Below are positions 50,351 through 64,000 of a stretch of DNA of 64,000 nucleotides, piece by piece. The notes beneath the pieces are model-generated. The model was not told the origin of the DNA and ran no database searches. It worked only from the letters and a program-made list of their open reading frames with translations. The stretch comes from Bacteriovoracaceae bacterium (GTDB lineage Bacteria > Bdellovibrionota > Bacteriovoracia > Bacteriovoracales > Bacteriovoracaceae), in contig DAIPJL010000001.1 of assembly GCA_036770305.1 (NCBI GenBank), forward strand, positions 1,899 through 65,898. The letters are read 5' to 3'. How positions within the stretch are numbered: the first letter of the stretch is position 1; each line of letters starts with the position of its first letter. The position numbers and the translations under genes are program-made.

Positions 50351-51279
50351 ACAAGGATTTTCTTTCTAATTCCGAGAAGAATACCGAAAGCGATTCCGGC
50401 GCCCTGGCTAATTTGTGAGACGTATAGAAAGCTAGCAGCCTTTACAAGAGATAGGCGAGTACGCGAGTTAAGGAGTCGCAGGTTCCTCACCTGAGAGAGT
50501 CCCCACGCTGCCATGGACAGAGGGTAAAGTTTTGGGAAGCTTATGAGGGTTGCAAGCCCGAGCCAGCTTATTGCGATCCCGGCCAAGTCGCTACTCTTAG
50601 TGTGAAAGCGCTCTCCAAGAGATCCCTCCATCTGAAGAAGAGCATATTGTTGAGCGATACGGAAGTCGTACTCGGGCAGCCTGTGGAACGGTAAATGTTT
50701 GTTGTGGGTAAAGGTAGCACTGGGAACCAGTTCAATTGCGATTCCACGCTTTGAAAGGTCTAATCCCAGTCGTACATCCTCGAGTATGCGGTGTTCCGCC
50801 GGCCAAGATACCGGGAAGTTGAATGCACATAGGCTGCCATAGATGAAAGCTATGTTGGATGTGTGCTCGTGTCTGTGTCTAAGGAGGGCCATCTTGAGCC
50901 GCGTTGCCGTCTGTGAGCTATCGGAGCCACGTACTAGTCCCATTAGTGCCACCGGGGCTTTTGCCTCTGCGAGCCTCGTCCTAATTTCTCGAACGGTGCC
51001 AGGATCAAGCACGACGTCTGTGTCTACGAAAATCCTCCCTTGCCACTTTGCGAGTGTGCCACCGAGGTTACGAGCGGAAGCTGGTCCCATATTTTGTGGA
51101 TTTCGTATGAGTCGAATTTGTGGATTGTTTTGTGCAGGAAGCTGATCCTCGGAGGAGCCGTCGTCAGAAATTATCACTTCATCTAGAGGTTCTAGCTGAG
51201 GAAGAATCGATGCCAGAAGGCGGGAAGTATGTTGCCGGGCATTATAAGCCGGTATGATGATTGAAAGGGGAATCCCCAT
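50347..51279 (-). CDS. GT2-family glycosyltransferase
   Basis: 310 aa. LSIIIPAYNARQH...IISDDGSSED...FVDTDV. C-terminal TM helices. ATGA overlap with the downstream fusion gene. Confidence 0.85.
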   Translation of the reverse strand: MGIPLSIIIPAYNARQHTSRLLASILPQLEPLDEVIISDDGSSEDQLPAQNNPQIRLIRNPQNMGPASARNLGGTLAKWQGRIFVDTDVVLDPGTVREIRTRLAEAKAPVALMGLVRGSDSSQTATRLKMALLRHRHEHTSNIAFIYGSLCAFNFPVSWPAEHRILEDVRLGLDLSKRGIAIELVPSATFTHNKHLPFHRLPEYDFRIAQQYALLQMEGSLGERFHTKSSDLAGIAISWLGLATLISFPKLYPLSMAAWGLSQVRNLRLLNSRTRLSLVKAASFLYVSQISQGAGIAFGILLGIRKKILV

Positions 51280-51382
51280 GTAGTCACGGCCAGTGTATTG
51301 TTAATACTATGATTTTACCTGACTTAGTAAAAAAGGTCGATGTCGAAATTTCTCCGGATGTTAATCGGGATGTGTCATCACA

Positions 51383-52012
51383 ATGTTAAAGCTAGATGAC
51401 TTCGTCATCCGATTCGCAAGAGAGCTCCGCTTGCCTCTCCGAGAGATCCTGCGTATCCAGCAACTGGTTCAGCGTCACCCTCGCGTAAACTGGGACGACG
51501 CTCTAGGAGAATCGCAGCTGCGGAGTAAGCTAGAGCTCTGTCGGATGTTGCACGAAAATGACATAAGGCCGGATTTCATACAGATCCATGCGGGATGGAT
51601 CGGCTTGACAGCCTATCTCCTTCGTCTGGAGCCGAAGGCGCCGAAGAAAATCCAAATCATCGATCTGGATCCAGTCGCACTCGCCGCAGCACGGGACTTC
51701 TTAAGTGGGGTCGAAGTTTCTGTTCTTCAGGTAGACGTGAATACAGCGCCGATACCTGATGACGTCGATCTTGTGGTGAACACGTCCTGTGAGCACCTCC
51801 GGGATTTCTCGAGCTGGCTCGATCGGATTCCGCAAGGCGTACTATTTGCTTGTCAGTCGAATAATATGGTCGGGATCCATGCGCATATTAACTGCAGTCC
51901 TGATCTCATCCACTTTCAGGGATATTTCTCTAAGAGACTGATGATCGACACGTCTGTGGTGGATATGCCGGGAGGAAATGGCTGGCAGCGCTTCACCGTT
52001 TTGGGGCGCTAG
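51383..52012 (+). CDS. Class I SAM-dependent methyltransferase-like protein
   Basis: 209 aa. Motif I-like IHAGWIGLTAY, acidic beta2 end IIDLDP, DLVVNTSCEHL. Confidence 0.55.
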   Translation: MLKLDDFVIRFARELRLPLREILRIQQLVQRHPRVNWDDALGESQLRSKLELCRMLHENDIRPDFIQIHAGWIGLTAYLLRLEPKAPKKIQIIDLDPVALAAARDFLSGVEVSVLQVDVNTAPIPDDVDLVVNTSCEHLRDFSSWLDRIPQGVLFACQSNNMVGIHAHINCSPDLIHFQGYFSKRLMIDTSVVDMPGGNGWQRFTVLGR

Positions 52013-53526
52013 CGCTGTCGCCACCATCGTAGGGGAGATATGGGGTCCCTGAGGAAGTTTCCGATCGCGAGCGGAATTTCGGGGTCGAGGTAGTTCAAGT
52101 AGAAAATGCGAGCGCTCACTTCGAGCAGGAGGCGCCGTCGAATCGCACTCCCGCGGCCCTCTTGACGTGCCACTGGCTGCGGAAGGTGATAAACAGCGCT
52201 TGGGCAAAGAAAGAACCGAAGGCCTCTGATGTGTGCACGGTAGCCGAGGTCTGTGTCTTCGAAGCCGTAGAAAGTGTAGCACCGACGGAAGCCGCCGATG
52301 GCGAAGAATGTCGAGCGCTTCATTACGAGGGCGTAAGTGCAGGTGAACTTCCAGCGATCCGGCCGCTCATTCCATGCTGTGGAGCTGCGGAAGAATTCTT
52401 CCCAGTACGCGTTTTCATAGTACCCATCTAGCGGAGCACCTAGTCCTTGCCAGTCCTGCTTGAGGAAGAGGCGCTGTGCCATGACGATATCGTGTTTGGC
52501 ACTGGCGGCGATGAGGTCTTGGAACGCCTCTGGCGGCACGAGCATGTCTGCGTCGAGGAAGCATATGACGTTCCCACTGGCAAGGTCTGCGCCGACGTTC
52601 CTGGCGATTCCTGCGCGATACTGTGCGTCTCCCATTTGGCGAGGTGCCGTTCGGGCGAGGTGGACCACTGTTAAGGAGAACGTCGCCGTCTGGGTTGCTG
52701 CTTCCCGAAGGTACCCAGACGTCTCGTCAGTGCTTCCGTCATTAACGACGAGGACTTCGAGGCTGAGTCCCGTCGCAGGGGATAGTCGTGACAGTTGCTC
52801 AAGTACCGTAGGTAGCGTATCGATGTTGTTATAGGTTGGGATGATGATGGACACATCGGGTTTCTTAGGGGCTCCGCGAATCACCTGAGTCGGTTGGGGG
52901 AAAAGCTCTAGAGTGTCGGGCGTTCTTTTGTCGTAGCGATCGAGGCCGGGGAAACCTCGCACCTGGTGGCCGGTTGACCTAAGGACCTTCTCAAGGACTG
53001 AGACGAGCTCTCCGGCTGAAAGCAACCGTACTGATCCAGTGGCATGGTTTGCGGGTAGCAAGAAGAGCTTCGCCCGGAGATCCGCGGCGATCTCCTCGTA
53101 GGTCTTAAGTAGTTTTTGACGCGACTCTGGCACGACGAATGCGACGAACTGGTCTCCTTGACGCAGCCATGTGTCGAGCTCCTCTGAGGGCTCCGCGGGG
53201 GCGAGCAGCGCGTGTATCACGGGAGTGGTTTTTACGAGAGCCAGGGCCGCTTCCCGATAAATGACGACGGGGGTCATGTCTCGAAGTTGAATCTGCGATG
53301 CTAGCTCCGGAACGTCAAAATGGTAATGTGCGTTGCACGGAATGAGGACATGAGTCGCACCGGCGCGACGAGCTTCGCCTAGCTGTGAATCGAGAGCCTG
53401 TGGCATAGTGCCGGGACGACAAAAGCCGAGGTCGGTGCAGAAGCTGCAAGCCAGTGGACAGTTCGGCAATAGATTTAGCCGATAGACCAAATTTCCGACT
53501 TCGGGGAGTGTGGAGGAGGGCGTCAT
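52009..53526 (-). CDS. Two-domain protein: N-terminal CX3CX2C (radical-SAM-like) domain plus C-terminal GT2 glycosyltransferase
   Basis: 505 aa. C23-P-L-A-C27-S-F-C30 (nt 53437-53460). From about residue 235: VSIIIPTYNNIDTL...VVNDGSTDET...FLDADM. Confidence 0.7.
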   Translation of the reverse strand: MTPSSTLPEVGNLVYRLNLLPNCPLACSFCTDLGFCRPGTMPQALDSQLGEARRAGATHVLIPCNAHYHFDVPELASQIQLRDMTPVVIYREAALALVKTTPVIHALLAPAEPSEELDTWLRQGDQFVAFVVPESRQKLLKTYEEIAADLRAKLFLLPANHATGSVRLLSAGELVSVLEKVLRSTGHQVRGFPGLDRYDKRTPDTLELFPQPTQVIRGAPKKPDVSIIIPTYNNIDTLPTVLEQLSRLSPATGLSLEVLVVNDGSTDETSGYLREAATQTATFSLTVVHLARTAPRQMGDAQYRAGIARNVGADLASGNVICFLDADMLVPPEAFQDLIAASAKHDIVMAQRLFLKQDWQGLGAPLDGYYENAYWEEFFRSSTAWNERPDRWKFTCTYALVMKRSTFFAIGGFRRCYTFYGFEDTDLGYRAHIRGLRFFLCPSAVYHLPQPVARQEGRGSAIRRRLLLEVSARIFYLNYLDPEIPLAIGNFLRDPISPLRWWRQR

Positions 53527-53664
53527 GGCTGGGCGCTATGTGATCTCGGTGATGTTTTCAACAGCAGGATTTTTAGCTGGTCCTCCGAGTGTCACCAGCT
53601 AGGACATGCTACATTAACCTGTGGTTGAATTAGAAGATAACTTTTGTGTCTAGAAAGGTGTTGC

Positions 53665-55068
53665 ATGCATGACGATGCGGGGTACAGCCTCGAGCTCGTA
53701 AGGGCGCGAGCTCAGGAACTCCAGAAAGTCTCTCCAACTTTTTGTTTGGCGAAGTGGACGCAGTCGACGGTGCTGCTGCAGAACGGTTTGACACATTCCT
53801 GCCATCACCCCGCGCGGCACAGAATCTCTCAAGCAGATCTCGTGAATAATCCGCAGGGACTACACAATACGCCAGTGAAGCTCAGGGCTCGTTCTGAGCT
53901 CCTGCGCGGTAAGCAGACTCCCGAGTGCAGCTATTGCTGGAACATCGAAAACCTCAATCGTGGCCATATCTCGGATAGGATTTACAAATCGACCTACAGC
54001 TGGAGTTTCCCTCGTCTCGAGGAGATTCTGAGTTCGGGTTTGGGACAAGAAATAGCCCCTTCGTACTTAGAAGTTTCATTCGACTCGACGTGTAATGCGA
54101 AGTGCCTTTACTGCAACCCGGAGAGCTCATCCTCGTGGGAGGCAGAGATTCGTCGGTTTGGGCCGATGTCGCAAGTTGAAAAGCCGCTGTACGACCTAGG
54201 GGACATGCATAAGCGGGGTGCGCTTCCGATACCGCCGGAGGAGCCGAATCCGTACACCGAAGCATTTTGGAAGTGGTGGCCGGAAATTTATCAAAAGTTA
54301 ATGGTCCTGCGCATTACCGGGGGCGAGCCTTTATTATCGAATCATACGTGGAGGCTTATCGAGGAGGTGCTCGCCTCGCCGAGGCGGGAGCTAAGATTCG
54401 CAGTGAACTCCAATCTTTGCATCCCTCGCTCCCTCGTCACTCGGCTCGTTGATCAGATCAACGCCCTCGCAGGCAAGATTCACTCGTTCGAGGTTTACAC
54501 GAGTCTCGAGTCGGTCGGGACGCAGGCGGAGTATGTCCGCTACGGCATGCGTTTCGATGACTTTCTGGAGAACTGTCACTACGTTCTGGATCACACTCCG
54601 CCCTCATCTCGGCTGCACTTCATGACGACAATAAACCTGCTGAGCGCTCCGAGTTTCCTCGGCTACCTAGAGCTGCTTCGAAATCTTCGACGAAAGTATA
54701 AGGTCTCAAAAAATGACTTTCGTGTGCGCACGTTCCTGAACTATCTGCGCTGGCCACAGTTTCTCTCGCTGTCGCTCCTTCCGCAGCACCTCAAGGACGT
54801 CTACGCGGATGAGTGGGTTGAATTTGTGAAGAAGCACCTCGTTACGGCTTCCAGCGGTGATGCCGTGTTCTACGAAGAAGAGCTCGATCAGGTCGAGCGT
54901 CTCGTGGCCTACATGCAGACCTGCGTCCCTGAAAAAAGAGACTTCGAAAACTTCAGACTATTTATTACAGAGATAGACCGTCGTCGTGGTCTTGATTTCG
55001 TGGCAACGTTCCCGGAGCTGCGAATTCTATTGGAGCGGGGATACTTCGGAGAGCTCCGAAGGAAGTAG
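53665..55068 (+). CDS. Radical SAM enzyme with N-terminal Cys-rich (twitch-like) extension
   Basis: ATG at 53665 with an AAAGGTG RBS. CNAKCLYC (CX3CX2C, nt 54091-54114) and LRITGGEPLL (GGE motif). Four additional N-terminal Cys (FCLAKW, SCHH, ECSYCW). Confidence 0.8.
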   Translation: MHDDAGYSLELVRARAQELQKVSPTFCLAKWTQSTVLLQNGLTHSCHHPARHRISQADLVNNPQGLHNTPVKLRARSELLRGKQTPECSYCWNIENLNRGHISDRIYKSTYSWSFPRLEEILSSGLGQEIAPSYLEVSFDSTCNAKCLYCNPESSSSWEAEIRRFGPMSQVEKPLYDLGDMHKRGALPIPPEEPNPYTEAFWKWWPEIYQKLMVLRITGGEPLLSNHTWRLIEEVLASPRRELRFAVNSNLCIPRSLVTRLVDQINALAGKIHSFEVYTSLESVGTQAEYVRYGMRFDDFLENCHYVLDHTPPSSRLHFMTTINLLSAPSFLGYLELLRNLRRKYKVSKNDFRVRTFLNYLRWPQFLSLSLLPQHLKDVYADEWVEFVKKHLVTASSGDAVFYEEELDQVERLVAYMQTCVPEKRDFENFRLFITEIDRRRGLDFVATFPELRILLERGYFGELRRK

Positions 55069-55073
55069 CTCGT

Positions 55074-56273
55074 ATGACTGAAGCCTCATCTCTCGACATC
55101 GTCATTCCCACAGGCCACCGTCGGAAATCTCTCGCGAGGCTATTGTCTTCGATTCGGAGACAGGAGAAACCTGGCACATGGAGAGTCGTCGTAGTCGCCG
55201 ACGGAACTTCGCTCGACGCGGAGGCCCTGAGGATTATCGAGGTTGAGCCGGCGATCGAACTCGTGCGGATCTCTCGCGGTGGTGTGAACCGTGCGCGGAA
55301 TGCGGGGCTTAGGAGGTGTCGATCAGACTGGGTCTTGATGCTCGATGACGACGTCGTGCTGCCGGAGGGATACCTCGGAGCGCTTCTGGATCGCATCGGG
55401 CAGGAGACGCGGGTGGTGGCGGTTGGCGGCATCTACCTACCCAAGGAGGGTGCCGTGTCGGCGGCGACTGCCTATAATTATATCGCGAGCAGTTGGGTCA
55501 GGAGTGCGACGCGCTTAGACGGGACAACTTTTGCGCTGCTCGGTGGAAATGCTTGCTACCATCGAAGACGGCTTGGGGAGCGGCTAAGGTTTGCGGAGTG
55601 GATACATTTCGGTGGGGCAGAGACAGAGTTGAATCTGCGTCTCATTGAGCAGGGGCTAGAGCTGGGCTTCGATCCGGCGCTTCACGTGTACCACGACTGT
55701 GAGGTTGGAATACTGGGACTTGTTCGGAAGGGGTTCGCGCAGGCCCGAGGACGATCCTCTCTTGAGGGTCGGATTTCTTCGGCCGTGCTTGCTCTTACCG
55801 ACATCGCGAGAGTAGAAGATCAGCGCCCTGGAGTCCGTGCGTATTTCTTGGGATACGACCTTTTCAATTTCTGTCGTGCCCATAATCTTCTGAGGCATTC
55901 GGACGGCTACGAACTCCGCTTTCACCAGGCGATCATCTGGGGTGGGGAGCAAATTTTTAGGTCGTCTGGCATCGAACGAATTTGGGGCCTAGGCGTATCT
56001 CTCATGCGCGCGATGTTAAATTCCCTCGTTCGGTTAAGGGACTGGGTTCGGTGGCAGGTGCCACCGCAGTGTCGTGCCCTTGTGACTTGGGTTCGGTGGC
56101 AGGTACCACCAAAGTACCGCGCCTTAGTGATATGGGTTCGGTGGAAGACTTTACCCATAGTGGTCATCGTTGTGATATCGGTGCCATGTGCCTTTTTGCA
56201 GATACCGGTGTTTCTCCCGAGAGAGCGACTTTCGGATCTTCGAACGCAGATCCTCAGAAAAATACTAGGATAA
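55074..56273 (+). CDS. GT2-family glycosyltransferase with repeat-containing hydrophobic C-terminus
   Basis: 399 aa. LDIVIPTGHRRKSL...VVVADG...MLDDDV. The C-terminal segment contains the 45-bp tandem repeat and a TM helix. Confidence 0.8.
   Translation: MTEASSLDIVIPTGHRRKSLARLLSSIRRQEKPGTWRVVVVADGTSLDAEALRIIEVEPAIELVRISRGGVNRARNAGLRRCRSDWVLMLDDDVVLPEGYLGALLDRIGQETRVVAVGGIYLPKEGAVSAATAYNYIASSWVRSATRLDGTTFALLGGNACYHRRRLGERLRFAEWIHFGGAETELNLRLIEQGLELGFDPALHVYHDCEVGILGLVRKGFAQARGRSSLEGRISSAVLALTDIARVEDQRPGVRAYFLGYDLFNFCRAHNLLRHSDGYELRFHQAIIWGGEQIFRSSGIERIWGLGVSLMRAMLNSLVRLRDWVRWQVPPQCRALVTWVRWQVPPKYRALVIWVRWKTLPIVVIVVISVPCAFLQIPVFLPRERLSDLRTQILRKILG
56043..56150 (+). repeat. 45-bp in-frame tandem repeat (2 full copies plus a partial third)
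   Basis: TGGGTTCGGTGG... recurs at 56043, 56088 and 56133. Encodes WVRWQVPPQCRALVT / WVRWQVPPKYRALVI / WVRWKT... Confidence 0.9.
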
Positions 56274-56308
56274 ATTTGATTTTATAATTTAGTATCTACG
56301 TTCGAGAT

Positions 56309-57235
56309 ATGAACTATCAGTACTTTCATGAAGATCATTTTAAATGGGGATTCGACGCCCGTAGCTATGGGGCGAGGCGCACTTCATCAGAGGAGTTCTG
56401 GTGGAGTTTTTCGAAGGCCCCAGTCATCGTCCCATCATTTCGAGACGCCTGCTTAGAAGCTTGCAGGATTATTGTTAGAAACTCCTTAAGCCTTGGGCGG
56501 CCGATTACCCTATGTCTCAGTGGTGGTATCGACAGCGAAGTGGTAGCGAGATGCCTAAGAGAGATTGGTGCAGATTTTCAAGCGATCATTTATGAGTATC
56601 CCAACCAGCTGAATCAGCATGATGTACGAATGGCGCTCGATCTGTGTAAAACGCTAGGGATTCCATTTCGCTTAGAACAGTATGATATCCTGCGAGCGCT
56701 CACCGTGGACGCGAAAGATTGGTTGGATCGCTACAATGTGGTTAGGCCTTACCTGTATGTCTACTACGATATGATCCGACGTGCCCCGGGATATCCGGTC
56801 TTTTGCGCAGGAAATATTCAGCTCGAGCCATTCGTTCAGAGGAATTTTGATTTCGATAACCCGCCACAACTTGTGTGGAGGGAGTATGATCAGGACCAGG
56901 CCCCAACAGCTGCTCTGTGGGAGGATGGGGTACCAGCGGTCACAAGATTTTATCGGTTTACAGCGAACCTTTTAAGTTCTTTTCTAGAAGATCCGCTAGT
57001 GAAAATGTGGACTCAGTATCACGAGAGCCTAGGCTCAGCTCATAAGATGCACGACTTTAAGATATTCATTTATGCGCGTCACTGGCCTGAGCTTAAATCC
57101 AGACCTAAATTTACGAGTTATGAGCACATTAACCCACTTCATAAGTTTCTTCGCATTCAGCGCTCTTTACAGTTTAGAGAGCAACAGGTCCATGTGACAC
57201 TCGAAGAACTCCGATCTTCTCTAGGATTGATTTGA
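56309..57235 (+). CDS. PP-loop (N-type) ATP pyrophosphatase superfamily protein
   Basis: 308 aa. PP-loop LCLSGGIDSEVVARCL. No asparagine-synthase glutaminase domain. Low GC. Confidence 0.7.
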   Translation: MNYQYFHEDHFKWGFDARSYGARRTSSEEFWWSFSKAPVIVPSFRDACLEACRIIVRNSLSLGRPITLCLSGGIDSEVVARCLREIGADFQAIIYEYPNQLNQHDVRMALDLCKTLGIPFRLEQYDILRALTVDAKDWLDRYNVVRPYLYVYYDMIRRAPGYPVFCAGNIQLEPFVQRNFDFDNPPQLVWREYDQDQAPTAALWEDGVPAVTRFYRFTANLLSSFLEDPLVKMWTQYHESLGSAHKMHDFKIFIYARHWPELKSRPKFTSYEHINPLHKFLRIQRSLQFREQQVHVTLEELRSSLGLI

Positions 57236-57838
57236 GTGAGCCTTAGAAGAGTTCAACTCATAAGAGATGGTGTTCAGAAGTTATGTGATCCAGTCGTTTT
57301 GCGTAATTTCTACGACACCCTTGCGGAGATTCACTGCTCTCGTGATTCAAAGAGGTCAAACTATACCCAAGATGCTCTGGACTTAACGGGGCATGCTCTC
57401 TTTGATCTCGCCGTGGATGAGAACAAAAACATAGGGACGTTCTGCGGTGTTTATAATGGTGGAAGGTACCCTGCAGGGGTCTATCGATTGCTGAATCGAG
57501 TGTATGTGACACCACATTTTCGTAATCGCCACGGATTGCACATGGCACTTGCAACAAAGTACTTGTTGCCGGCGCAATATGAAGAAATCTGTGATCGATC
57601 AGATTTAGTATTCGTTTCGCGGGAAGGAGCCCTGGGCAGAGAGTCTCTTGGGCGCTGGCTCAGGGTGCACTGGGGGCATTCCGCATGGCGCGTTCATCCT
57701 CGCTACGTTCAAGTGGTGCCCGGGGTTAGAAACAAAAGAACTTTTCAAGCTATCGCTTATCAGTGCATCAGAAAAACTGACTGGTTTTTTGAAGAGTTAG
57801 ATGATGCCGAATGGCAAATGCTTCCAGAGGGTGTTTGA
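57236..57838 (+). CDS. Hypothetical protein, possibly GNAT-fold acyltransferase
   Basis: 200 aa. GTG start immediately after the previous TGA. LNRVYVTPHFRNRHGLHMALATKYL resembles GNAT motif A. Weak call. Confidence 0.35.
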   Translation: MSLRRVQLIRDGVQKLCDPVVLRNFYDTLAEIHCSRDSKRSNYTQDALDLTGHALFDLAVDENKNIGTFCGVYNGGRYPAGVYRLLNRVYVTPHFRNRHGLHMALATKYLLPAQYEEICDRSDLVFVSREGALGRESLGRWLRVHWGHSAWRVHPRYVQVVPGVRNKRTFQAIAYQCIRKTDWFFEELDDAEWQMLPEGV

Positions 57839-59169
57839 TGAGTCATGTCTCGCGCATCGGTATCACGCTGTGGTTTGACGATGAATCTCGGGATCTCTTG
57901 TCCATCAGCCTAGTCTCTATTCTTATGCAGGTTCAGCGAAAGAGAGTACCGCTCAAAATTGTGAAAGGTTTCCTATCGGCATTTCAGATCCAGCATCAAA
58001 GTGAGTACACACTCTTGATCCGAGCTGGTCATGTTTTTAAATCGAACAGATGGTACGATGAGCTTGTTCAGTTTACAGACCAGAGAGTACCTGCGATCGG
58101 CCACATAATCGCAAGGCCAGGTGAAGCACTATCTCTTCATCCGCAGTTGATGTTATTTATGACGCACCATTTGACCTCGATTGCTGCAGCGGTCATCAGT
58201 TGCAAGTCATACCGGCTTTTCGAGAGAAGTGATAATAATATCCACGATGATTACACGCCGCTCTGGGTTCGATCGACACAAGCCCCTCAGGAAAGAGCTG
58301 ACTCAAAGGTATGCGAGTCAATTGCAGCGGGAGCACTTGAGTTAAATCGTGAAATTCTTAACTGGCCATGGTCATACCGTAGACTGAAGCATGACATTTC
58401 TACCGATACGCCGTTACATCGTGCGGAGCATGTAAATAGGTATATCTATGAGATCGAGCGCCAGAGAAGTCTTCTCTATCCCTTTAATAACGAACCCCAT
58501 GTTGAGCTAGAGCTTCCGACCCTTGCTCACGTCATGGGCGTTGCGAGTGGACTAAAGCTCAATGCCCTGACGCACAGGTCAATCAATGATAAAACGAGAT
58601 TCACCTTTTTTGATATCAGCAGGCTGAGTCTGGAGTTCCGAGGTCGGATTAATAATGACTGGGATGGAAAGGATTACGAATCCTATGCTTCCGGAATAGC
58701 GAGTGGCTATGATGCTTCTCTAGTATATATCTCAGCCTTTCGAAGTTCGAGACAAGTCGAATGGCTAGCGTCACCCACTTTCGTAGAACATTGGAGGTTA
58801 TTCAAAGAGCTTCCAAAGCAATACATCCGGCACGATATTGTAGGCCACGAGAGAAAGAAGATTTTAGCTCACCTGAAGAAGGAGCCGTCGTTTATTTGGT
58901 TTAGCAATTCCTTTACATCCCAGAGTGCAGTTTTCATGAAGAGCTTCGGCCAGCTTTGCGAGCTTTATCTCAGATTCTCAAGTGAGGTAAGTGCCCTCAA
59001 CGAGGACTCGTTACTTTTTGGCTACTCACCTCTCGGCGAAGCGATGTCGAAGCCCATGACACCAAGGGAAATGATCGAGAGTTTTTCTTTTGACCATGCT
59101 TTGTTCATACGGTCAGTGTGCGTCGGCGGCACGCCGAAAGAGCTTATATTCGAGGGAACCGACTCTTGA
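57838..59169 (+). CDS. Hypothetical protein (443 aa), unknown function
   Basis: ATG at 57838 overlaps the previous stop (TGATG). No recognised motif. A possible Rossmann-like segment (HVMGVASGLK...FTFFDIS). The 3' end overlaps convergent pepM by 26 nt. Confidence 0.6.
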   Translation: MSHVSRIGITLWFDDESRDLLSISLVSILMQVQRKRVPLKIVKGFLSAFQIQHQSEYTLLIRAGHVFKSNRWYDELVQFTDQRVPAIGHIIARPGEALSLHPQLMLFMTHHLTSIAAAVISCKSYRLFERSDNNIHDDYTPLWVRSTQAPQERADSKVCESIAAGALELNREILNWPWSYRRLKHDISTDTPLHRAEHVNRYIYEIERQRSLLYPFNNEPHVELELPTLAHVMGVASGLKLNALTHRSINDKTRFTFFDISRLSLEFRGRINNDWDGKDYESYASGIASGYDASLVYISAFRSSRQVEWLASPTFVEHWRLFKELPKQYIRHDIVGHERKKILAHLKKEPSFIWFSNSFTSQSAVFMKSFGQLCELYLRFSSEVSALNEDSLLFGYSPLGEAMSKPMTPREMIESFSFDHALFIRSVCVGGTPKELIFEGTDS

Positions 59170-59974
59170 GGGATGAAATTTCTTCGTAGTCCATGAACTG
59201 AAAAAGCTCCTTCATAGACATTAGCCCCTCTTCAGGTGCACTAGAGTACTTTCTTATGTGTTCCGCGACTTCTAGTTGGGCCCTGATAGCAGCGCGCATT
59301 CCTTGATTGGCCCAAATTACTCCGCGTATTGCGTGCTCGAGTAGTAGATTAGATGGAGGCAGTGGATAGGTCGTAGGACAAACGATCACTGGGATTTCAC
59401 CTGAAATCGAATGGCAAACTTCTTGGATGTGGTCGAAACAGTCACGGTTGGAATGAATGAAAATGGCATCGGCGCCTACCTCGTGGGCTGCGCGAGCACG
59501 CCGATAGACGGCATCCGCACTCTCTCCACGAATTAGTCCCTCGAGTCGTGCAACGATGAGCATCCTAGAGCGCAGGGCGAGGGATGCTTGAATCTTCTCA
59601 ATAAAATCGCCTTCCGTTGCACCAATTTGCGCACCGGTCTGAAGACTGTTGTTTTTTACACCAGCCTTATCCTCGATGACGATCCCAAGTGCACCAATTT
59701 TTTCAAGGCGCTTAATAAGATAAGCGAGCTTTTCGATGGAGTTAAATCCATTGGTCCCGTCGACTAAGAGCTTCAGATTCGAGGTCGAGCTAAGTTGTAA
59801 GCACGTGTCGAGGATGTGCTCCGGTCCGAGTTCCTCACTGTCGCGAATTCCGTGACTGGTCGCTACACACAGAGATGAAACCCAGCCAAAATCGAAGCCA
59901 GTCTGGGAAGCAACGCGTGCAGAAATTGGATCGTGAACTTCATAGAAGTGAACGATTTCGTTCGGCTTTAGCAT
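59144..59974 (-). CDS. pepM: Phosphoenolpyruvate mutase (isocitrate lyase/PEP mutase superfamily)
   Basis: 276 aa. Aligns end to end, by eye, with my recollection of PEP mutases (ISARVA..GF...VDGTNG...). Carries the discriminating motif IEDKAGVKNNS (EDK-X5-NS, nt 59645-59674), plus IVARLE, GADAIFIHS and VIWAN. Confidence 0.85.
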   Translation of the reverse strand: MLKPNEIVHFYEVHDPISARVASQTGFDFGWVSSLCVATSHGIRDSEELGPEHILDTCLQLSSTSNLKLLVDGTNGFNSIEKLAYLIKRLEKIGALGIVIEDKAGVKNNSLQTGAQIGATEGDFIEKIQASLALRSRMLIVARLEGLIRGESADAVYRRARAAHEVGADAIFIHSNRDCFDHIQEVCHSISGEIPVIVCPTTYPLPPSNLLLEHAIRGVIWANQGMRAAIRAQLEVAEHIRKYSSAPEEGLMSMKELFQFMDYEEISSLKSRFPRI

Positions 59975-60768
59975 TGTTGCTCGTATTGGGTATGCGGCAG
60001 CGCATTTGATCTGGTGCGGATAAGCCGAACTAGAAGCATCGCGGGGTCAAACTCATGTCGATGGCACGCAAAGTTGGCCCGTGAGGGAAAAGCATGGTGA
60101 TTGTTGTGCAAAGATTGGCCCCAGGTAAACCATGTGAGCCACCGTATGTTTCGTGAATTGTCACCAGTTTGCTGAGGCCGAAGGCCTGGTTTGTCCATGT
60201 GACAGAAAAGATTAATGATGTTTTCTTGATGGATGCTGTAGAGCATAGGCAGGGCGATTAAATTAAGTCCGATGTCCAGTGGAATAAGAACGGAGGCGGC
60301 AAGAGTGAGGTGAATCAAGGTTTCGTAATTTCGGTGTAGCCATTTCTGCCAAGGATCTCTCGCGAGATTTTTTGCGTGTTGGAGACTGAATTTACGATGA
60401 TCAAATCTTATCTGCCAACCGAGGTAAGAGGACCACTTCCCGTTCACAGGAGAATGAATGTCCAGAGAGGTGTCAGAATGTATGTGATGAAGGCGATGTA
60501 GTGCTACCCAGAAAATTGGCGATCCCTGTCCTCCCAGTGCTCCAAGGAGGGAGATGATTTTCTCAATCCGAAGGCTGGTTTTAAAAGATTTGTGAGAGAG
60601 ATATCTGTGAAGCCCGACGGCTACACCTAAGCCACTTATGAGAGTCCAGCCTATCAAAATGAGCAAGATGCTAGAAAGCTGAGGAGCACTGAGCAATCGG
60701 AATAGTGCGTAGAGCCCCACGAGGTGAATAGGGATAATGACACGAGTAAAGTGCGGAGATAGTTTCAT
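59968..60768 (-). CDS. Membrane fatty-acid desaturase family protein (short form)
   Basis: 266 aa. Three His boxes HRYLSH, HRLHH and HNNHH in the acyl-CoA desaturase arrangement. Four hydrophobic segments. Confidence 0.85.
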   Translation of the reverse strand: MKLSPHFTRVIIPIHLVGLYALFRLLSAPQLSSILLILIGWTLISGLGVAVGLHRYLSHKSFKTSLRIEKIISLLGALGGQGSPIFWVALHRLHHIHSDTSLDIHSPVNGKWSSYLGWQIRFDHRKFSLQHAKNLARDPWQKWLHRNYETLIHLTLAASVLIPLDIGLNLIALPMLYSIHQENIINLFCHMDKPGLRPQQTGDNSRNIRWLTWFTWGQSLHNNHHAFPSRANFACHRHEFDPAMLLVRLIRTRSNALPHTQYEQQC

Positions 60769-61481
60769 GAGAGTTGTTTTTTTAACAAGAAGACTTCTTC
60801 GTACATCTCTTCAGAGATTTTTGAGCTAATGGATGATGAGAGAATTTCCGTTCCAGGCAAAATAAGATCACTTAGCTGCATCATGTTGTTTGCCCCGTTC
60901 CATGGGTATCCCATAACGAGCATGGTTAGGCCCTTTTTCGTTGCGGCATAGCCGTGGGGCATACTCCCGTTAAGTACAAATGCATCATGGTGCTCGTTGA
61001 TAAACAACTTTTCACCTGATTTGTTTAAAAAAAATATACCAGACGTATCACCGTCGAGCACAAGTCGTAGCTTTAATTCAAGCTTTGAGGTGTTAGAAGG
61101 GGCGATATCCACATGAACTGGGATGGATGTATTTGGTGCCACATGTAAGATACAACACCGTGGTAGCGGTTTCATCCAGCTAAAGAAGCATGACTCAAGG
61201 ATTCTGCAAGCTTCGGGCATTTGAACCGCAGCTTCGGTCCAAGGCAATAATGCTGAAGATGTCACAAGACCGGATACCATGAGGTTCGAAGGTTTTTTTT
61301 CGGTTTCGTAATTTTTTTGGGGCCATAGGCGAAGGATGTGAGAGGCACGAAACTCGTCAGGATACCAGCCACTCAGATCATCGAGGAGTGGACGAAGCTC
61401 CGAGTTAATCTTCAGAACGTCTTCAGGACCAATTCCAAGCTTCGAAAGAGAGATTCCGGCAAAGGCAATATCCTTCGTCAT
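60765..61481 (-). CDS. Cupin-fold Asp/Asn beta-hydroxylase (AspH/LpxO)-like oxygenase, paralogue C
   Basis: 238 aa. ILHVAPNTSIPVHVD (HxD) ... LKLRLVL ... GSMPHGY (distal His). ATGA overlaps on both sides. Confidence 0.6.
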   Translation of the reverse strand: MTKDIAFAGISLSKLGIGPEDVLKINSELRPLLDDLSGWYPDEFRASHILRLWPQKNYETEKKPSNLMVSGLVTSSALLPWTEAAVQMPEACRILESCFFSWMKPLPRCCILHVAPNTSIPVHVDIAPSNTSKLELKLRLVLDGDTSGIFFLNKSGEKLFINEHHDAFVLNGSMPHGYAATKKGLTMLVMGYPWNGANNMMQLSDLILPGTEILSSSISSKISEEMYEEVFLLKKQLS

Positions 61482-62308
61482 ACCTTATGAGCCTCGTTCC
61501 ATGTGCTAGAGTTTAACTCAGTATTTGCGATGATTCGCTGGATCTCTGACGGAAGTATGGTTTTACCAGTCAAAGCCTCAATCACCTGCTGAACCGCACT
61601 TTGGGGGAAGTGTGTTCCTCCTGCCTTCACGATAGCAGCAAGGTAGTGGTTAGGGTCTACTGAGCTTTCCGTCAATGTGTCTTTGAAGTCGCCGTAGGCG
61701 ATACGCCCATTGCGAAGATACGAATTAGTTTTGAAGAAACTCAGTCGGCGATAACCAAGGGCGGAGAGTCTAAGATTAAAATCAATGAAGTCTACCGTAG
61801 ACTTTTCGCTAAGTGAGAGGTCTTTGTGCTTTTCGAGTGTAAGTAAGTCCTCGCCTAGATACTCCATGACGAGAGTTTGTGTGACGTCATCTTTCTCAAG
61901 CAGGAGAGGGCCGTGGAAACCGTTAAGTGCACTGAGAATCTCTGCTTCCTTCCGATAGAAGAATCTCAAGACGTCGGGCGATGATTGTGTCAGAGGAGTT
62001 CCGCCGACTGTGATCCCGTGAGGGTGGAAGATTTTTACGACTTTTCTTTCGGCAGGATTAATCAAGATGCTGGCACTCGACCCTATCGAGGCTTTCAATG
62101 TCTTGGTTCCGTCGCGGAGAATAGGCTTGCTGTGGGGGTGTCTGAAGACCTTGAAGCCTCTTCTTTCCCAGCTCGCAATAAGATCGCTAAACTGGGCTTC
62201 CTCTAAACTCGTGTGTGAGGAAAGATTCCTAGTCGCCGAGATTGTTGAAATTCCCACAAGGCCAAATCCTTTTATCAATGTGGTCGACAGGAAGTCTCGT
62301 CTGAGCAT
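61478..62308 (-). CDS. Protein-kinase-like-fold protein with twin-arginine-type N-terminus
   Basis: 276 aa. AAGGAG RBS 6 nt upstream. MLRRDFLSTTLIKGFGLVGISTISA (RRxFL plus h-region). Kinase-like strands KVVKIF, EAEILSAL, LVMEYLG, YGDFKD, but no HxD catalytic loop. Confidence 0.4.
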   Translation of the reverse strand: MLRRDFLSTTLIKGFGLVGISTISATRNLSSHTSLEEAQFSDLIASWERRGFKVFRHPHSKPILRDGTKTLKASIGSSASILINPAERKVVKIFHPHGITVGGTPLTQSSPDVLRFFYRKEAEILSALNGFHGPLLLEKDDVTQTLVMEYLGEDLLTLEKHKDLSLSEKSTVDFIDFNLRLSALGYRRLSFFKTNSYLRNGRIAYGDFKDTLTESSVDPNHYLAAIVKAGGTHFPQSAVQQVIEALTGKTILPSEIQRIIANTELNSSTWNEAHKV

Positions 62309-62523
62309 TTCGGGCTCCTTGTTGATTCTGATAAACTAAGGTCATTTTACTATACAACGGGTCAGTCACTTTTCTTAAAAGAAGTGTGGTTGTGTTTATA
62401 ATCACTTGGCTAAGAGAGAAATTGAAATTCAAAAAATGTCTGAGCGAGCCTCTAGTTATATTAAATGCTTATGGTGGCAACGCTCGTGGCTATATGGAGG
62501 TAAGAAAATTCTAGTTTCTAGGC

Positions 62524-63168
62524 TTAAATCGACAGGTCGCAGAACCTGTCTGGATTTGCAATAAAATGCTCGTGATTTATGTCTGCAACGATGTGATCCC
62601 TGAATTCGGTTCCATTGTTTAAAACTTCGTGGAGAAGGTCTATTCGAACTAAGTAGCCGGCTCCCGAAGCGGGGAGGTGATATTTGACATTACCGTAGAG
62701 CATCACTGCGTCCGGATTTGTGTTGATGGGAATAATAAGTCGATATCTTGCGCCGTTCTTTCCACTTGCGTCTTTGTGCGGAGGGCTACCCCTCGAACCC
62801 GGCCAAATCCGCAAAACTCGAACACGAGAAGGCTCCAGGCAGGCATCTTGAAGTATGCGTAGTAGTTCTTGGAAGCCGCCGACGCAAGCTGACGTCTTGA
62901 TTGTTTCAGGTCCTCGATTCGCGAGAAAGTCTCGCATTTCTTGAAGCTTTTCAGGGGAAAGGGTGGAGTTGAAAACAACCTGACCGCTGTAGAACCCGTC
63001 AGCGACCTCTCCGGTGCTACTCGTGAGAGCCCAGCCGCCGTATCCTGGATGTTTCAAAACGATAGGGAAATTTTCAGTCACATACTTGAGGTCCTTGCGG
63101 AGTTGCAAGATATCAAACCGGAGTTTGAGTTTTAAAATCGGATTATCATTTAACATCACATGAACCAA
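62524..63168 (-). CDS. Cupin-fold AspH/LpxO-like oxygenase, paralogue B
   Basis: 214 aa. VLRIWPGSRGSPPHKD (HxD), RYRLIIPINT, LLHEVLNNGTEFRDHIVAD. An alternative ATG at 63156 gives a TGATG junction with the upstream gene. Confidence 0.7.
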   Translation of the reverse strand: MVHVMLNDNPILKLKLRFDILQLRKDLKYVTENFPIVLKHPGYGGWALTSSTGEVADGFYSGQVVFNSTLSPEKLQEMRDFLANRGPETIKTSACVGGFQELLRILQDACLEPSRVRVLRIWPGSRGSPPHKDASGKNGARYRLIIPINTNPDAVMLYGNVKYHLPASGAGYLVRIDLLHEVLNNGTEFRDHIVADINHEHFIANPDRFCDLSI

Positions 63169-63842
63169 TCTAAGAAGTTTTCAGAAGGCCTTCCATGAAC
63201 AATAAGATGCACTCTGTCTTGGTCGCTGAAATTAACTACTGCGTGTTCGTGTCGGGTATTGAGAGAGAAGGCGACACCGTTCTCGAATGGAACGTATCCA
63301 AAATCCTTAAACTTAAAAAACGATCCCGCCGGATTATCGAGGGCGATGTTGAGCCAGCAGAGGCGGCCCTCATTCGGTTTCGACTTCCCATCCCGGTGTG
63401 GTCGTGTAAACCCCTTTGGGCCAAGAACCATGAAGCGAACTCTCTCGAGCCTCTCGTACGGGAGTGACTCTATGAATTTTCGTGTTAAGGGACAAAGAGT
63501 TGAGCAGTTTGTCCAAGCATATGGGACTTCGGATTCGTCTGCCCATGCCCCGTAGCGAACGAAGTTATCTACCTGCTGATTACCTAGTCCGTGTAGCGCG
63601 ACCGCTTTCCATTTGTAGCTAACAGAGTGAGGGTAGGTGTTATGGTTGCTGACCAGGAGTGAGCGAATGCCTTGGTATTCTGCGAGAATATCGGTCACAG
63701 GAATTTGTTTTGAAAACTTTAGAGCGACTAGTGCCGATGATTGGAGTTGTTCTAGCGAGAGGCTACTAGCACTTGTGGCTTTGAGATAAGCGGGAGACTG
63801 ACAGTCACTAAAAAACGAGCTAACTTCTTCTGGGAAAAGCAT
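63156..63842 (-). CDS. Cupin-fold AspH/LpxO-like oxygenase, paralogue A
   Basis: FMVLGPKGFTRPHRD (HxD), CWLNIAL, RHEHAVVNFSDQDRVHLIV. Start at ATG 63842 (MLFPEEV...) or TTG 63878. Confidence 0.65.
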   Translation of the reverse strand: MLFPEEVSSFFSDCQSPAYLKATSASSLSLEQLQSSALVALKFSKQIPVTDILAEYQGIRSLLVSNHNTYPHSVSYKWKAVALHGLGNQQVDNFVRYGAWADESEVPYAWTNCSTLCPLTRKFIESLPYERLERVRFMVLGPKGFTRPHRDGKSKPNEGRLCWLNIALDNPAGSFFKFKDFGYVPFENGVAFSLNTRHEHAVVNFSDQDRVHLIVHGRPSENFLDWFM

Positions 63843-63902
63843 GATACAAAGATGTATTTCAGCGAGACGATATCGCAAGAGGAAAATGAGGGGAATCGCG
63901 TA

Positions 63903-64000
63903 ATGAATTTAATTAAATCGACCTCGGGTCTGTTTAAAAATGATCTTTATCAAATTCCCTTAATCGAACTCGATTTTGATTCAATGAGCCTTTGCATCTC
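63903..64000 (+). CDS. 5' end of an unidentified CDS running out of the window
   Basis: ATG at 63903, open to the window end (MNLIKSTSGLFKNDLYQIPLIELDFDSMSLCI...). Divergent from the cupin genes. Too short to classify. Confidence 0.3.
   Translation, partial: MNLIKSTSGLFKNDLYQIPLIELDFDSMSLCI

What the first reader, a model, noticed from the sequence alone, without database searches (positions are those of the whole stretch)
60765..63878. Three divergent paralogous AspH/LpxO-type cupin oxygenases packed around the pepM operon
- ORFs 63156-63842/63878, 62524-63168 and 60765-61481 (all minus strand) share the pattern hydrophobic-x-P/G-x-x-x-x-P-H-x-D ... basic-hydrophobic strand ... H-E/G-x-x-x-N.
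- That pattern is the 2-His-1-carboxylate cupin signature of the aspartyl/asparaginyl beta-hydroxylase family. The family includes the lipid A hydroxylase LpxO and the ornithine-lipid hydroxylase OlsC.
- All three are short (214-240 aa) and lack the membrane anchor of LpxO/OlsC.
- Cupin-fold mononuclear iron enzymes are also recurrent phosphonate-tailoring catalysts (HEPD, MPnS, HppE).
- Three copies in about 3 kb beside PepM and a desaturase suggest either successive hydroxylations of a lipid or phosphonate scaffold, or a new C-P tailoring chemistry.
Basis: partly seen in the sequence, partly recalled or inferred. Interest (0 to 1): 0.62.

Follow-up and report, generated by a model that had tools for sequence, protein, structure and literature searches.

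The report
AspH-type oxygenases, two in a glycan cassette
Three small iron-oxygenase-like genes really do sit around a phosphonate (pepM) operon, but two of them belong to a conserved, uncharacterised gene cassette that elsewhere sits beside sugar-chain (glycan) genes in bacteria and viruses and never beside pepM; only the third, most degenerate copy is tied to pepM.

Summary
The three minus-strand ORFs exist and share an H-x-D...H cupin signature beyond chance.

- **ORF1 (63156-63842):** a firm PF05118 (AspH-type) Fe(II)/2OG oxygenase. It scores 40.5 bits, its AF2 model has pLDDT 90, and Foldseek's top hits are proline hydroxylases, Cpz10 and AspH.
- **ORF2 (62524-63156):** a remote but real member (hhalign 89%) with the metal triad and 2OG-binding Arg intact.
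- **ORF3 (60765-61481):** a probable, very divergent member. It matches one family member at BLASTP E 2e-8 and scores about 8 sd above shuffles. It keeps H-x-D...H but lacks the invariant Arg, Asn and His.

They are not recent paralogues (21-23% identity). The phosphonate-tailoring reading is unsupported for ORF1 and ORF2.

- ORF1-type cupins elsewhere are adjacent or fused, in both orders, to a homologue of the no-Pfam 452-aa ORF at 57811-59169.
- This holds in at least 15 of 19 genome loci and 76 of 80 viral contigs. The usual viral layout is cupin A, u452, cupin B, next to sugar and glycosyltransferase genes.
- None of those 99 loci has pepM.
- None of the 80 nearest PepM loci has any of these genes.

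The PepM itself is an outlier: at most 36% identity to the relatives recovered, D-x-D changed to D-x-T, and no Ppd nearby. ORF3's role is unresolved.

The parts
63156..63842 (-). ORF1, 'cupin A': an AspH-type (PF05118) Fe(II)/2OG oxygenase of 228 aa (alternative TTG start at 63878). Key residues are H149, D151, H200, N204, R210 and H212.
   Evidence: PF05118 at 40.5 bits against a cutoff of 22.6. 421 representatives in the exhaustive phmmer search. AF2 pLDDT 89.9. Foldseek top hits are 4p7w, 7v4f, AspH and 1e5r. 160.6 bits against the viral cupin A HMM. Triad and Arg mapped onto 4p7w and AspH.
62524..63156 (-). ORF2, the second cupin: a remote PF05118 member of 210 aa whose ATG overlaps ORF1's stop. 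Key residues are H127, D129, H176, N180, R186 and H188.
   Evidence: PF05118 at 14.9 bits, E 0.024, below threshold. hhalign against the ORF1 family: 89%, E 2e-6. phmmer hits 11 family members. A 33%-identical relative in L013 passes PF05118 at 32.2 bits. Against the viral cupin B profile it scores 33.4, with a shuffle maximum of 19.6.
60765..61481 (-). ORF3: a very divergent cupin-like protein of 238 aa, second gene of the pepM operon. It keeps W81-T-E, R108, H123, D125 and H176. The family's invariant Arg aligns to G184, and the family's Asn and His are also absent.
   Evidence: No Pfam hit. hhalign against the ORF1 family scores 34.7 over 111 columns, with 0 of 90 shuffles reaching it. BLASTP against P0083 gives E 2e-8 and ends at H176. 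The AF2 model was unusable, pLDDT 31.
57811..59169 (+). 'u452': a 452-aa protein of unknown fold and the conserved partner of the ORF1-type cupin. Its motifs are GHILD...LHxQ, RSxENxHDDYTPLW, VASGLK, WDGxDY and WxSNxF.
   Evidence: No Pfam, NCBIfam, PHROG or PDB match. A homologue lies next to the cupin in at least 15 of 19 genome loci and 76 of 80 viral loci. It is fused to the cupin in both orders.
61478..62308 (-). 'u276': the first gene of the pepM operon, 276 aa, with no recognisable family. Its N-terminus, MLRRDFLSTTL, resembles a twin-arginine signal.
   Evidence: No Pfam, NCBIfam, PHROG or PDB match. It overlaps ORF3 by 4 nt.
59968..60768 (-). Membrane fatty-acid-desaturase-like di-iron protein of 266 aa. 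Its His boxes are HRYLSH (54), HRLHH (91) and HNNHH (221).
   Evidence: PF00487 at 62 bits.
59144..59974 (-). Divergent PepM-like protein of 276 aa. EDKAGVKNNS (the EDK-x5-NS motif) is present, but the D-x-D motif reads D72-G-T74.
   Evidence: PF13714 at 142.6 bits; TIGR02320 at 188.9 bits, below its cutoff of 319.55. Alignment to Mytilus PepM 1m1b. All 80 nearest relatives keep D-x-D.
53644..55068 (+). N-terminal-twitch radical SAM protein. It is the first gene of the plus-strand run rSAM, GT2 (55074-56273), PP-loop ATPase (56309-57235), u200 (57236-57838), u452.
   Evidence: NF033640 at 284 bits against a cutoff of 170. Homologues lie near the cupin-u452 genes in L008, L013, L014 and some viral loci.
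63903..64000 (+). Start of an FkbM-type methyltransferase (PF05050) transcribed divergently from ORF1. It runs off the window.
   Evidence: Logan contig L101 extends 2.5 kb past the window, and the gene call carries PF05050.

Best explanation
All three ORFs are members of the AspH-like (PF05118) branch of the double-stranded beta-helix Fe(II)/2-oxoglutarate oxygenases, but they fall into two functional groups.

**ORF1 and ORF2.** These are two anciently diverged cupins of a conserved, uncharacterised cassette. Its third component is the 452-aa protein encoded at 57811-59169. Both keep the full H-x-D...H metal triad and the Arg that binds the C5 carboxylate of 2OG. They are most likely active 2OG-dependent hydroxylases. 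They most likely work with, or on a substrate held by, u452 to hydroxylate a sugar-linked substituent or glycoconjugate during assembly of a surface glycan. The low-GC island is full of GT2 glycosyltransferases, methyltransferases, an acetyltransferase, a twitch radical SAM enzyme and a PP-loop ATPase.

**ORF3.** This is a third, much more degenerate family member. It is translationally coupled inside a separate four-gene operon: u276, ORF3, a desaturase-like protein and a PepM-like protein. It keeps the iron ligands but not the 2OG-binding Arg. It is either a 2OG-independent or altered-cosubstrate iron enzyme acting in that operon's pathway, or a non-catalytic relic.

**Shown here:**
- family membership of the three ORFs;
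- the catalytic residues by alignment;
- the fold of ORF1;
- the cupin-u452 linkage;
- the absence of any pepM linkage outside this window.

**Inferred:** enzymatic activity, a glycan-type substrate, and any role for ORF3.
For: **Family and fold**
- ORF1 hits PF05118 at 40.5 bits.
- 102 of 103 aligned relatives hit PF05118.
- Invariant residues are H149, H200 and R210; D151 is nearly invariant.
- These map onto the PHRD...H...R positions of L-proline cis-4-hydroxylase and onto AspH.
- The AF2 model has pLDDT 89.9, and all top Foldseek hits are 2OG oxygenases.

**ORF2**
- hhalign 89% against the ORF1 family.
- Direct phmmer hits to 11 family members.
- A 33%-identical relative passes the PF05118 threshold.

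**ORF3**
- Shuffle-calibrated hhalign score.
- BLASTP E 2e-8 to P0083.

**Cassette**
- A u452 homologue lies beside the cupin in at least 15 of 19 genome loci and 76 of 80 viral loci.
- Single fused proteins of 700-1070 aa exist, with both domain orders.
- The layout cupin A, u452, cupin B occurs in 61 viral loci.

**Glycan context**
- Viral loci carry a DegT aminotransferase, a 4,6-dehydratase, an epimerase, and GT2 and GT4 transferases directly upstream.
- Bacterial loci carry GT2, a carbamoyltransferase, an Asn-synthase-like gene and rSAM genes.
- The window has four GT2 genes, methyltransferases and a GNAT.

**No pepM link**
- 0 of 99 cupin loci carry a PepM homologue.
- 0 of 80 PepM loci carry any of these genes.
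Against: - No biochemical data exist for any member of this subfamily. u452 has no recognisable fold, so 'glycan tailoring' rests on neighbourhood only.
- In this window u452 is not adjacent to ORF1 and ORF2. It lies 3.4 kb away on the other strand, with the pepM operon in between. That layout could equally be read as a functional merger of the two modules.
- ORF2's assignment as the counterpart of viral cupin B is weak (hhalign 42%).
- ORF3's homology is only probable (hhalign 57%), and no usable structure was obtained.
- ORF2, ORF3 and PepM were never put through the exhaustive search. The word-seeded search that called them singletons also missed ORF1's 40%-identical relatives, so relatives with informative contexts may exist.
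Confidence: 0.65

Rival explanations
1. One reading: all three cupins act in the PepM pathway, hydroxylating a phosphonate or a phosphonolipid made with the desaturase. This could be successive hydroxylations or new C-P chemistry.
For: - All six genes lie on one strand within 4.7 kb, and ORF3 is translationally coupled inside the pepM operon.
- 2OG oxygenases of other families are known phosphonate tailoring enzymes (established knowledge).
- In this window the pepM operon is physically inserted between the cassette's parts.
Against: - ORF1-type cupins occur in 99 other loci without pepM.
- The 80 nearest PepM loci have none of these genes.
- The conserved, often fused partner of ORF1 is u452, not PepM.
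- A 215-bp gap separates ORF2 from the pepM operon.
- None of the three hits Cupin_2, the HEPD/MPnS/HppE type.
Confidence: 0.15
2. Only ORF3 is a phosphonate enzyme. It would be an iron cupin that has lost 2OG binding and uses a pathway intermediate directly. One example is phosphonopyruvate serving as its own alpha-keto acid. That would supply the irreversible step that a Ppd normally provides after PepM.
For: - ORF3 keeps H123/D125/H176 but lacks the invariant Arg, Asn and His.
- It sits between u276 and the desaturase with 4-nt overlaps in the pepM operon.
- No Ppd or other phosphonopyruvate-consuming enzyme was found in the Pfam- and NCBIfam-annotated ORFs of the island, or in the 2.5 kb beyond the window.
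Against: - This is entirely inferential.
- The PepM-like protein has Thr in place of the universally conserved second Asp of D-x-D, so it may not make phosphonopyruvate at all.
- No ORF3 relatives are known whose context could be checked.
- No usable structure model was obtained.
Confidence: 0.12
3. ORF3 is a degenerate, non-catalytic cupin remnant, or it has a structural or regulatory role. Its position next to pepM would then be incidental to a mosaic, horizontally acquired glycan island.
For: - It has lost three of the family's invariant or near-invariant residues after the distal His.
- No relative other than itself was found.
- The island has a GC shift from 0.63 to 0.46.
- The PepM is also aberrant.
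Against: - The open reading frame is intact.
- The three iron ligands and the W-T-E and R motifs are retained.
- The tight 4-nt overlaps on both sides are typical of co-translated operon genes.
Confidence: 0.2

Closest known systems
Human aspartyl/asparaginyl beta-hydroxylase AspH (PF05118; PDB 5apa, 6yyu)
   Same: ORF1 and its family match the same Pfam family and the same double-stranded beta-helix fold (Foldseek E 2e-7). The proximal His, the distal His and the Arg ten residues after it align.
   Different: - AspH has Gly in place of the acidic ligand, whereas these proteins have H-x-D.
- AspH carries TPR domains and a membrane anchor and hydroxylates EGF-domain proteins.
- These proteins are 210-240 aa, soluble and single-domain.
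- Sequence identity is about 17%.
L-proline cis-4-hydroxylase (PDB 4p7w/4p7x) and proline 3-hydroxylase (1e5r)
   Same: These are the best structural and sequence-profile matches (Foldseek E 2e-10, TMq 0.59; profile E 2e-7). PHRD...H...R aligns residue for residue. Like these ORFs, they are stand-alone small enzymes, and they act on a free small molecule.
   Different: - Identity is only 15-16%.
- There is no u452-type partner and no glycan context.
- The subfamily's conserved GW-S-LHGL and W-T-E motifs are its own.
Cpz10, the aKG-dependent beta-hydroxylase of caprazamycin biosynthesis (PDB 7v4f; PMC9814697)
   Same: It is the second-best structural and profile match. It is a small PF05118-like enzyme that hydroxylates an aminoacyl substituent on a nucleoside-sugar scaffold. 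That is the kind of substrate the glycan context suggests here.
   Different: - It comes from an actinomycete antibiotic cluster.
- Identity is about 18%.
- It has no paired second cupin and no u452 partner.
LpxO (lipid A hydroxylase) and OlsC (ornithine-lipid hydroxylase)
   Same: They belong to the same Pfam family by established annotation. They act on acyl chains of envelope lipids, and a desaturase-like gene is nearby here.
   Different: LpxO and OlsC are membrane-anchored. None of the three ORFs has a hydrophobic segment. No direct comparison with LpxO or OlsC sequences was run.
HEPD / MPnS / HppE phosphonate cupins
   Same: They are mononuclear iron cupins that act on phosphonates without 2OG. 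This is a conceptual parallel for the Arg-less ORF3.
   Different: They belong to a different cupin family (Cupin_2 type). None of the three ORFs hits it. The link is by analogy only.

Membership tests
PF05118 Asp/Asn beta-hydroxylase family | Score above the Pfam gathering threshold (22.6 bits) | tested here: inconclusive
   ORF1 scores 40.5 bits and meets the threshold. ORF2 scores 14.9 bits (E 0.024) and does not meet it directly, although its 33%-identical relative scores 32.2 bits. ORF3 has no hit.
PF05118 Asp/Asn beta-hydroxylase family | Remote homology to bona fide members by profile methods | tested here: met
   ORF2: hhalign 89%, E 2e-6. ORF3: hhalign 57%, E 1e-4, score 34.7 against a shuffle maximum of 23.0, plus BLASTP E 2e-8 to P0083. 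102 of 103 profile members hit PF05118.
Fe(II)/2OG oxygenases (double-stranded beta-helix) | Double-stranded beta-helix fold matching solved 2OG oxygenases | tested here: inconclusive
   Met for ORF1: pLDDT 89.9, and all top PDB hits are 2OG oxygenases. The ORF3 model was unusable at pLDDT 31.
Fe(II)/2OG oxygenases (double-stranded beta-helix) | H-x-D/E...H facial triad | tested here: met
   ORF1 has H149/D151/H200, ORF2 has H127/D129/H176 and ORF3 has H123/D125/H176. These align with the ligands of 4p7w and AspH. The test is by alignment only, not by geometry.
Fe(II)/2OG oxygenases (double-stranded beta-helix) | Basic residue that binds the 2OG C5 carboxylate (Arg about 10 residues after the distal His in this family) | tested here: inconclusive
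   Met in ORF1 (R210) and ORF2 (R186). Not met in ORF3, where the position aligns to G184, with K182 and K183 just before it.
LpxO / OlsC-type lipid hydroxylases | Membrane anchor or transmembrane segments | tested here: not met
   The maximum 19-residue Kyte-Doolittle score is 0.86-1.11 for the three ORFs, against 2.27 for the desaturase.
Phosphonate-tailoring cupins (HEPD/MPnS/HppE) | Cupin_2-type domain and recurrent linkage to pepM | tested here: not met
   No Cupin_2 hit for any of the three. pepM is absent from 99 related cupin loci. The cupins are absent from 80 PepM loci.
Cupin A - u452 - cupin B cassette (defined here, uncharacterised) | An ORF1-type cupin encoded next to, or fused with, a u452-type protein, often with a second divergent cupin | tested here: met
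   ORF1 scores 160.6 bits against the viral cupin A HMM. u452 is present in the same island (57811-59169), and ORF2 is the second cupin. The layout differs here: u452 is on the other strand, 3.4 kb away. ORF2's equivalence to cupin B is weak.
PEP mutase (PepM), for the neighbouring gene | EDK-x5-NS gating-loop motif and the D-x-D metal-site motif | tested here: inconclusive
   EDKAGVKNNS is present, and D58, D85, E114, K120, R159 and H190 (Mytilus numbering) are conserved. D87 is Thr (D72-G-T74), whereas 80 of 80 relatives keep Asp. TIGR02320 scores 188.9 bits against a cutoff of 319.55.
All of the above | Catalytic activity and substrate | not testable with these tools
   This requires expression and assays.

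The most novel reading that the evidence does not exclude
The four-gene operon u276 - ORF3 - desaturase-like - PepM-like encodes a Ppd-independent phosphonate route. In it, the Arg-less cupin ORF3 would use phosphonopyruvate itself as the alpha-keto-acid substrate. Oxidative decarboxylation to a phosphonoacetate-type product would pull the unfavourable PEP mutase equilibrium. The product would then be attached to a lipid or glycan built by the surrounding island, and the cupin A/u452/cupin B cassette would hydroxylate it further.
Probability: 0.06. Interest if true: 0.85.

Novelty: new variant of a known kind. Interest (0 to 1): 0.5.

Why it matters
**A widespread unstudied cassette.** The work links a small, unstudied branch of AspH-like 2OG oxygenases to an obligate partner domain. 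That domain has no Pfam, PHROG or PDB relative.
- The module recurs in hundreds of uncultured viral contigs and in Bdellovibrionota, Myxococcota and Flavobacteriia MAGs.
- It always sits beside sugar-nucleotide and glycosyltransferase genes.
- This points to a widespread but undescribed glycan-modifying activity shared by viruses and bacteria. Such modifications bear on cell-surface recognition.

**An unusual PepM operon.** The window also holds a very unusual PepM operon: a D-x-T metal motif, no Ppd, and a cupin that has lost its 2OG-binding Arg. If this operon is active, it would be a new way of committing carbon to C-P compounds.

**Limits.** Neither function is established. As it stands the finding is a well-defined target for biochemistry, not a discovery of new chemistry.

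Tried and rejected
- **Word-seeded homologue searches** for all three ORFs returned only the queries themselves. This was a sensitivity artefact. The exhaustive search found 421 relatives of ORF1, so 'orphan' status for ORF2 and ORF3 is not established.
- **AF2 of ORF3** with a three-sequence alignment gave pLDDT 31 and was discarded.
- **ORF1 as a single sequence against PDB** found nothing.
- **PepM as a single sequence against genome contigs** found nothing.
- **Family alignments A2 and A3** were too diverse for the locus scan. The six-sequence alignment A4 worked.
- **Fusion partners other than u452** (one beta-lactamase-like, one sulfotransferase) were uninformative.
- **The cultured T4-like marine myophage idea.** One paper lists an Asp/Asn hydroxylase as a core gene of pelagimyophages (PMC7029224). 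I rejected the idea for this subfamily because tblastn of ORF1 and u452 against 50,697 GenBank phages found nothing, and no PHROG matches.
- **ORF3 as the counterpart of viral cupin B.** This was not supported: score 26.9 against a shuffle maximum of 28.3.
- **u452 against nearby genes.** The u452 profile showed no similarity to PDB sequences or to the neighbouring methyltransferases, GNAT, GT2s and PP-loop protein.
- **Assembly chimera as the cause of the GC drop.** Rejected: depth is even at 9-11x and independent contigs bridge the shift.
- **Promoter and terminator scans** were no better than chance. **Rfam** found nothing in 44-64 kb.
- **Literature searches** found no paper linking PF05118 enzymes to pepM.
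- **Host taxon.** Exact look-ups of two housekeeping proteins found no record, so the host taxon remains unknown.

Full report
**1. What is in the sequence**

The last third of the window is a lower-GC island. GC falls from about 0.63 to 0.46.

The island is not an assembly chimera. Word depth in the source run is even at 9-11x across 44-64 kb, and independent contigs bridge the shift. The source is a hot-springs metagenome.

The rest of the window carries ordinary diderm housekeeping genes: a secretin, AccC, TamB, Omp85, Lon, AlaRS and RecG.

The island encodes the following genes:

| Coordinates | Strand | Gene |
|---|---|---|
| 48179-53526 | mixed | three GT2 glycosyltransferases and a methyltransferase |
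| 53644-55068 | + | N-terminal-twitch radical SAM (NF033640, 284 bits) |
| 55074-56273 | + | a fourth GT2 glycosyltransferase |
| 56309-57235 | + | PP-loop ATPase |
| 57236-57838 | + | 200-aa unknown (u200) |
| 57811-59169 | + | 452-aa unknown (u452) |
| 61478-62308 | - | u276 |
| 60765-61481 | - | ORF3 |
| 59968-60768 | - | desaturase-like protein |
| 59144-59974 | - | PepM-like protein |
| 62524-63156 | - | ORF2 |
| 63156-63842 | - | ORF1 |

- The plus-strand genes from 53644 to 59169 form one run.
- The four minus-strand genes from u276 to PepM converge on that run and have 4-7-nt overlaps, so they look like an operon.
- After a 215-bp gap come ORF1 and ORF2. ORF2's ATG overlaps ORF1's stop codon.
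- A Logan contig that extends 2.5 kb beyond the window shows an FkbM-type methyltransferase divergent from ORF1, then a GNAT. There is no Ppd.

**2. Are the three ORFs AspH-type cupins?**

*ORF1: yes.*
- It passes PF05118 at 40.5 bits against a cutoff of 22.6.
- The exhaustive HMMER search found 421 representatives at E 1e-3 or better, the best at about 40% identity.
- 102 of 103 aligned relatives hit PF05118.
- The alignment has H149, P171, H200 and R210 invariant. D151, N204 and H212 are nearly invariant.
- With that alignment the AF2 model is confident: pLDDT 89.9, pTM 0.89.
- Its best PDB matches are all Fe(II)/2OG oxygenases: L-proline cis-4-hydroxylase, Cpz10, AspH and proline 3-hydroxylase (Cpz10 identified from PMC9814697).
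- The family profile aligns H-x-D, the distal His and the Arg ten residues later with the corresponding residues of 4p7w and AspH.

*ORF2: yes, by remote homology.*
- It is below the Pfam threshold at 14.9 bits.
- It aligns over 160 columns with the ORF1 family at 89% hhalign probability, and every catalytic position is kept: H127, D129, H176, N180, R186 and H188.
- It hits 11 family members directly by phmmer.
- It has a 33%-identical relative in a Bdellovibrio MAG that passes PF05118 on its own.

*ORF3: probably.*
- It has no Pfam hit, and its AF2 model failed.
- Its hhalign score against the family is 34.7. Ninety shuffles gave mean 13.7, sd 2.7 and maximum 23.0. Five unrelated window proteins scored 10-16.
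- BLASTP against family member P0083 gives 30% identity over 96 residues, E 2e-8. The alignment runs from the family's W-T-E motif through R, P and H-x-D, and ends at the distal His.
- After that His, ORF3 diverges. The invariant Arg aligns to Gly184, and the Asn and His are missing.

*All three.* None has a hydrophobic segment. They are 21-23% identical to each other, so they are ancient relatives, not a recent local triplication.

**3. What ORF1 and ORF2 belong to**

I scanned GTDB species genomes with a family alignment and obtained 19 loci. They are mostly from Bdellovibrionia/Bacteriovoracia, Kofleriaceae and Flavobacteriia MAGs.
- None has a PepM, desaturase, u276 or ORF3 relative.
- At least 15 have a relative of u452 directly next to the cupin.
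- In about ten, the two are one polypeptide of 700-1070 aa.
- Among the protein representatives, 18 fusions were detected, in both domain orders.

The same scan of IMG/VR found 321 relatives, and 80 were kept.
- 76 of the 80 have the u452 gene about 200 bp downstream.
- 61 have a second, very divergent cupin after it, giving the layout cupin A, u452, cupin B.
- The carriers are true viruses, because structural, baseplate, tail-fibre, RNR and ligase genes flank the cassette.
- No deposited phage genome and no PHROG contains either gene.

In the main viral group the cassette follows these genes:
- a DegT aminotransferase;
- a 4,6-dehydratase and an epimerase;
- GT2-like and GT4 transferases;
- a methyltransferase;
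- an IscA/HesB-like Fe-S protein.

Bacterial loci add GT2, a carbamoyltransferase, an Asn-synthase-like gene and twitch or other radical SAM genes.

ORF1 scores 160.6 bits against the viral cupin A model. ORF2 resembles both types: it scores 44 against the cupin A family and 33.4 against cupin B, where the shuffle maximum was 19.6.

The window therefore holds the complete set of two cupins plus u452, inside a glycan island. Here the pepM operon lies between the parts.

**4. The pepM operon**

The PepM-like protein keeps the PepM-specific EDK-x5-NS motif and most catalytic residues. It is unusual in several ways:
- It is only 28-36% identical to the 80 nearest relatives recovered from metagenomes.
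- All 80 of those relatives keep D-x-D-x-G, whereas the window protein reads D72-G-T74-N-G.
- None of those 80 loci has a relative of ORF1, ORF2, ORF3, u452, the desaturase or u276.
- No phosphonopyruvate-consuming enzyme is visible nearby.

The operon therefore has no parallel that I could find. Whether it makes a phosphonate at all is open.

**5. Most likely mechanism**

- ORF1 and ORF2 are probably active Fe(II)/2OG hydroxylases. Their residues are shown here; their activity is inferred.
- They probably act together with u452. The linkage is shown here; its physical basis is unknown.
- The substrate is probably a sugar-linked substituent or glycoconjugate. This is inferred from neighbourhoods only.
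- Cpz10, which hydroxylates an aminoacyl group on a nucleoside-sugar scaffold, is a useful analogue.
- ORF3 is a degenerate family member tied to the pepM operon. It could be a 2OG-independent iron enzyme of that pathway or a relic.

**6. Comparison and novelty**

The proteins are members of a known superfamily and Pfam family. ORF3 is only a probable member.

They differ from LpxO and OlsC, which have a membrane anchor. They differ from HEPD, MPnS and HppE, which belong to a different cupin family.

What is new is the subfamily's obligate partner domain, its two-cupin layout and its abundance in uncultured viruses. No paper in the searched library links PF05118 enzymes to pepM.

**7. Verdict**

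- The family assignment is largely right.
- The phosphonate-tailoring interpretation is unsupported for two of the three genes and untested for the third.
- Interest is moderate. The finding is a clear biochemical target, not demonstrated new chemistry.

Noticed in passing
window 57811-59169 (+); L021-L100; L002-L020: The 452-aa ORF with no Pfam, PHROG or PDB match defines a conserved domain with the motifs GHILD, RSxENxHDDYTPLW, VASGLK, WDGxDY and WxSNxF. It is adjacent to or fused with AspH-like cupins in at least 15 of 19 genome loci and 76 of 80 viral contigs. Its fold and function are unknown.
   Followed up: yes
window 59144-59974 (-), residues 71-76: The PepM-like protein reads V-D-G-T-N-G where all 80 nearest relatives and the solved PepM and PPH read D-x-D-x-G. 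The second metal-site Asp is Thr. The protein is at most 36% identical to any relative recovered, and it has no Ppd nearby.
   Followed up: partly
window 53644-55068 (+): This is an N-terminal-twitch radical SAM protein (NF033640, 284 bits). Homologues recur a few kb from the cupin-u452 genes in L008, L013, L014 and some viral loci, which suggests it belongs to the same module.
   Followed up: partly
L048 7429-7980 and equivalents in about 69 viral loci: An IscA/HesB-like Fe-S cluster biosynthesis protein (PF01521) is encoded immediately upstream of cupin A in the main viral synteny group. This is an odd companion for a mononuclear-iron enzyme.
   Followed up: no
window 61478-62308 (-): The first gene of the pepM operon has no detectable family. 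It begins MLRRDFLSTTLIKGFGLVGISTISA, which resembles a twin-arginine export signal.
   Followed up: partly
window 56043-56132 (+): A 45-nt tandem duplication (78% identity) lies inside the C-terminal part of the GT2 gene 55074-56273. It encodes a repeated VRWQVPP...RALV segment.
   Followed up: no
window about 46000-64000, extending to about 66500 in L101: This is a lower-GC island (0.46-0.56, against 0.60-0.67 elsewhere) packed with GT2s, methyltransferases, a GNAT, rSAM and PP-loop genes. Depth is even, so it is a real genomic island and was probably acquired horizontally.
   Followed up: partly
L101 3066-3338 (-), which equals window 63195-63467 (+): On the short Logan contig the public gene caller missed ORF1. 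It called a 90-aa antisense ORF inside it instead. ORF1's 421 relatives show that the minus-strand reading is the real gene.
   Followed up: yes
Method caveat: the word-seeded 5.8-billion-protein search returned only the query for ORF1, although relatives at 39-42% identity exist. 'Singleton' results from it for ORF2 and ORF3 should not be read as orphan status.
   Followed up: yes
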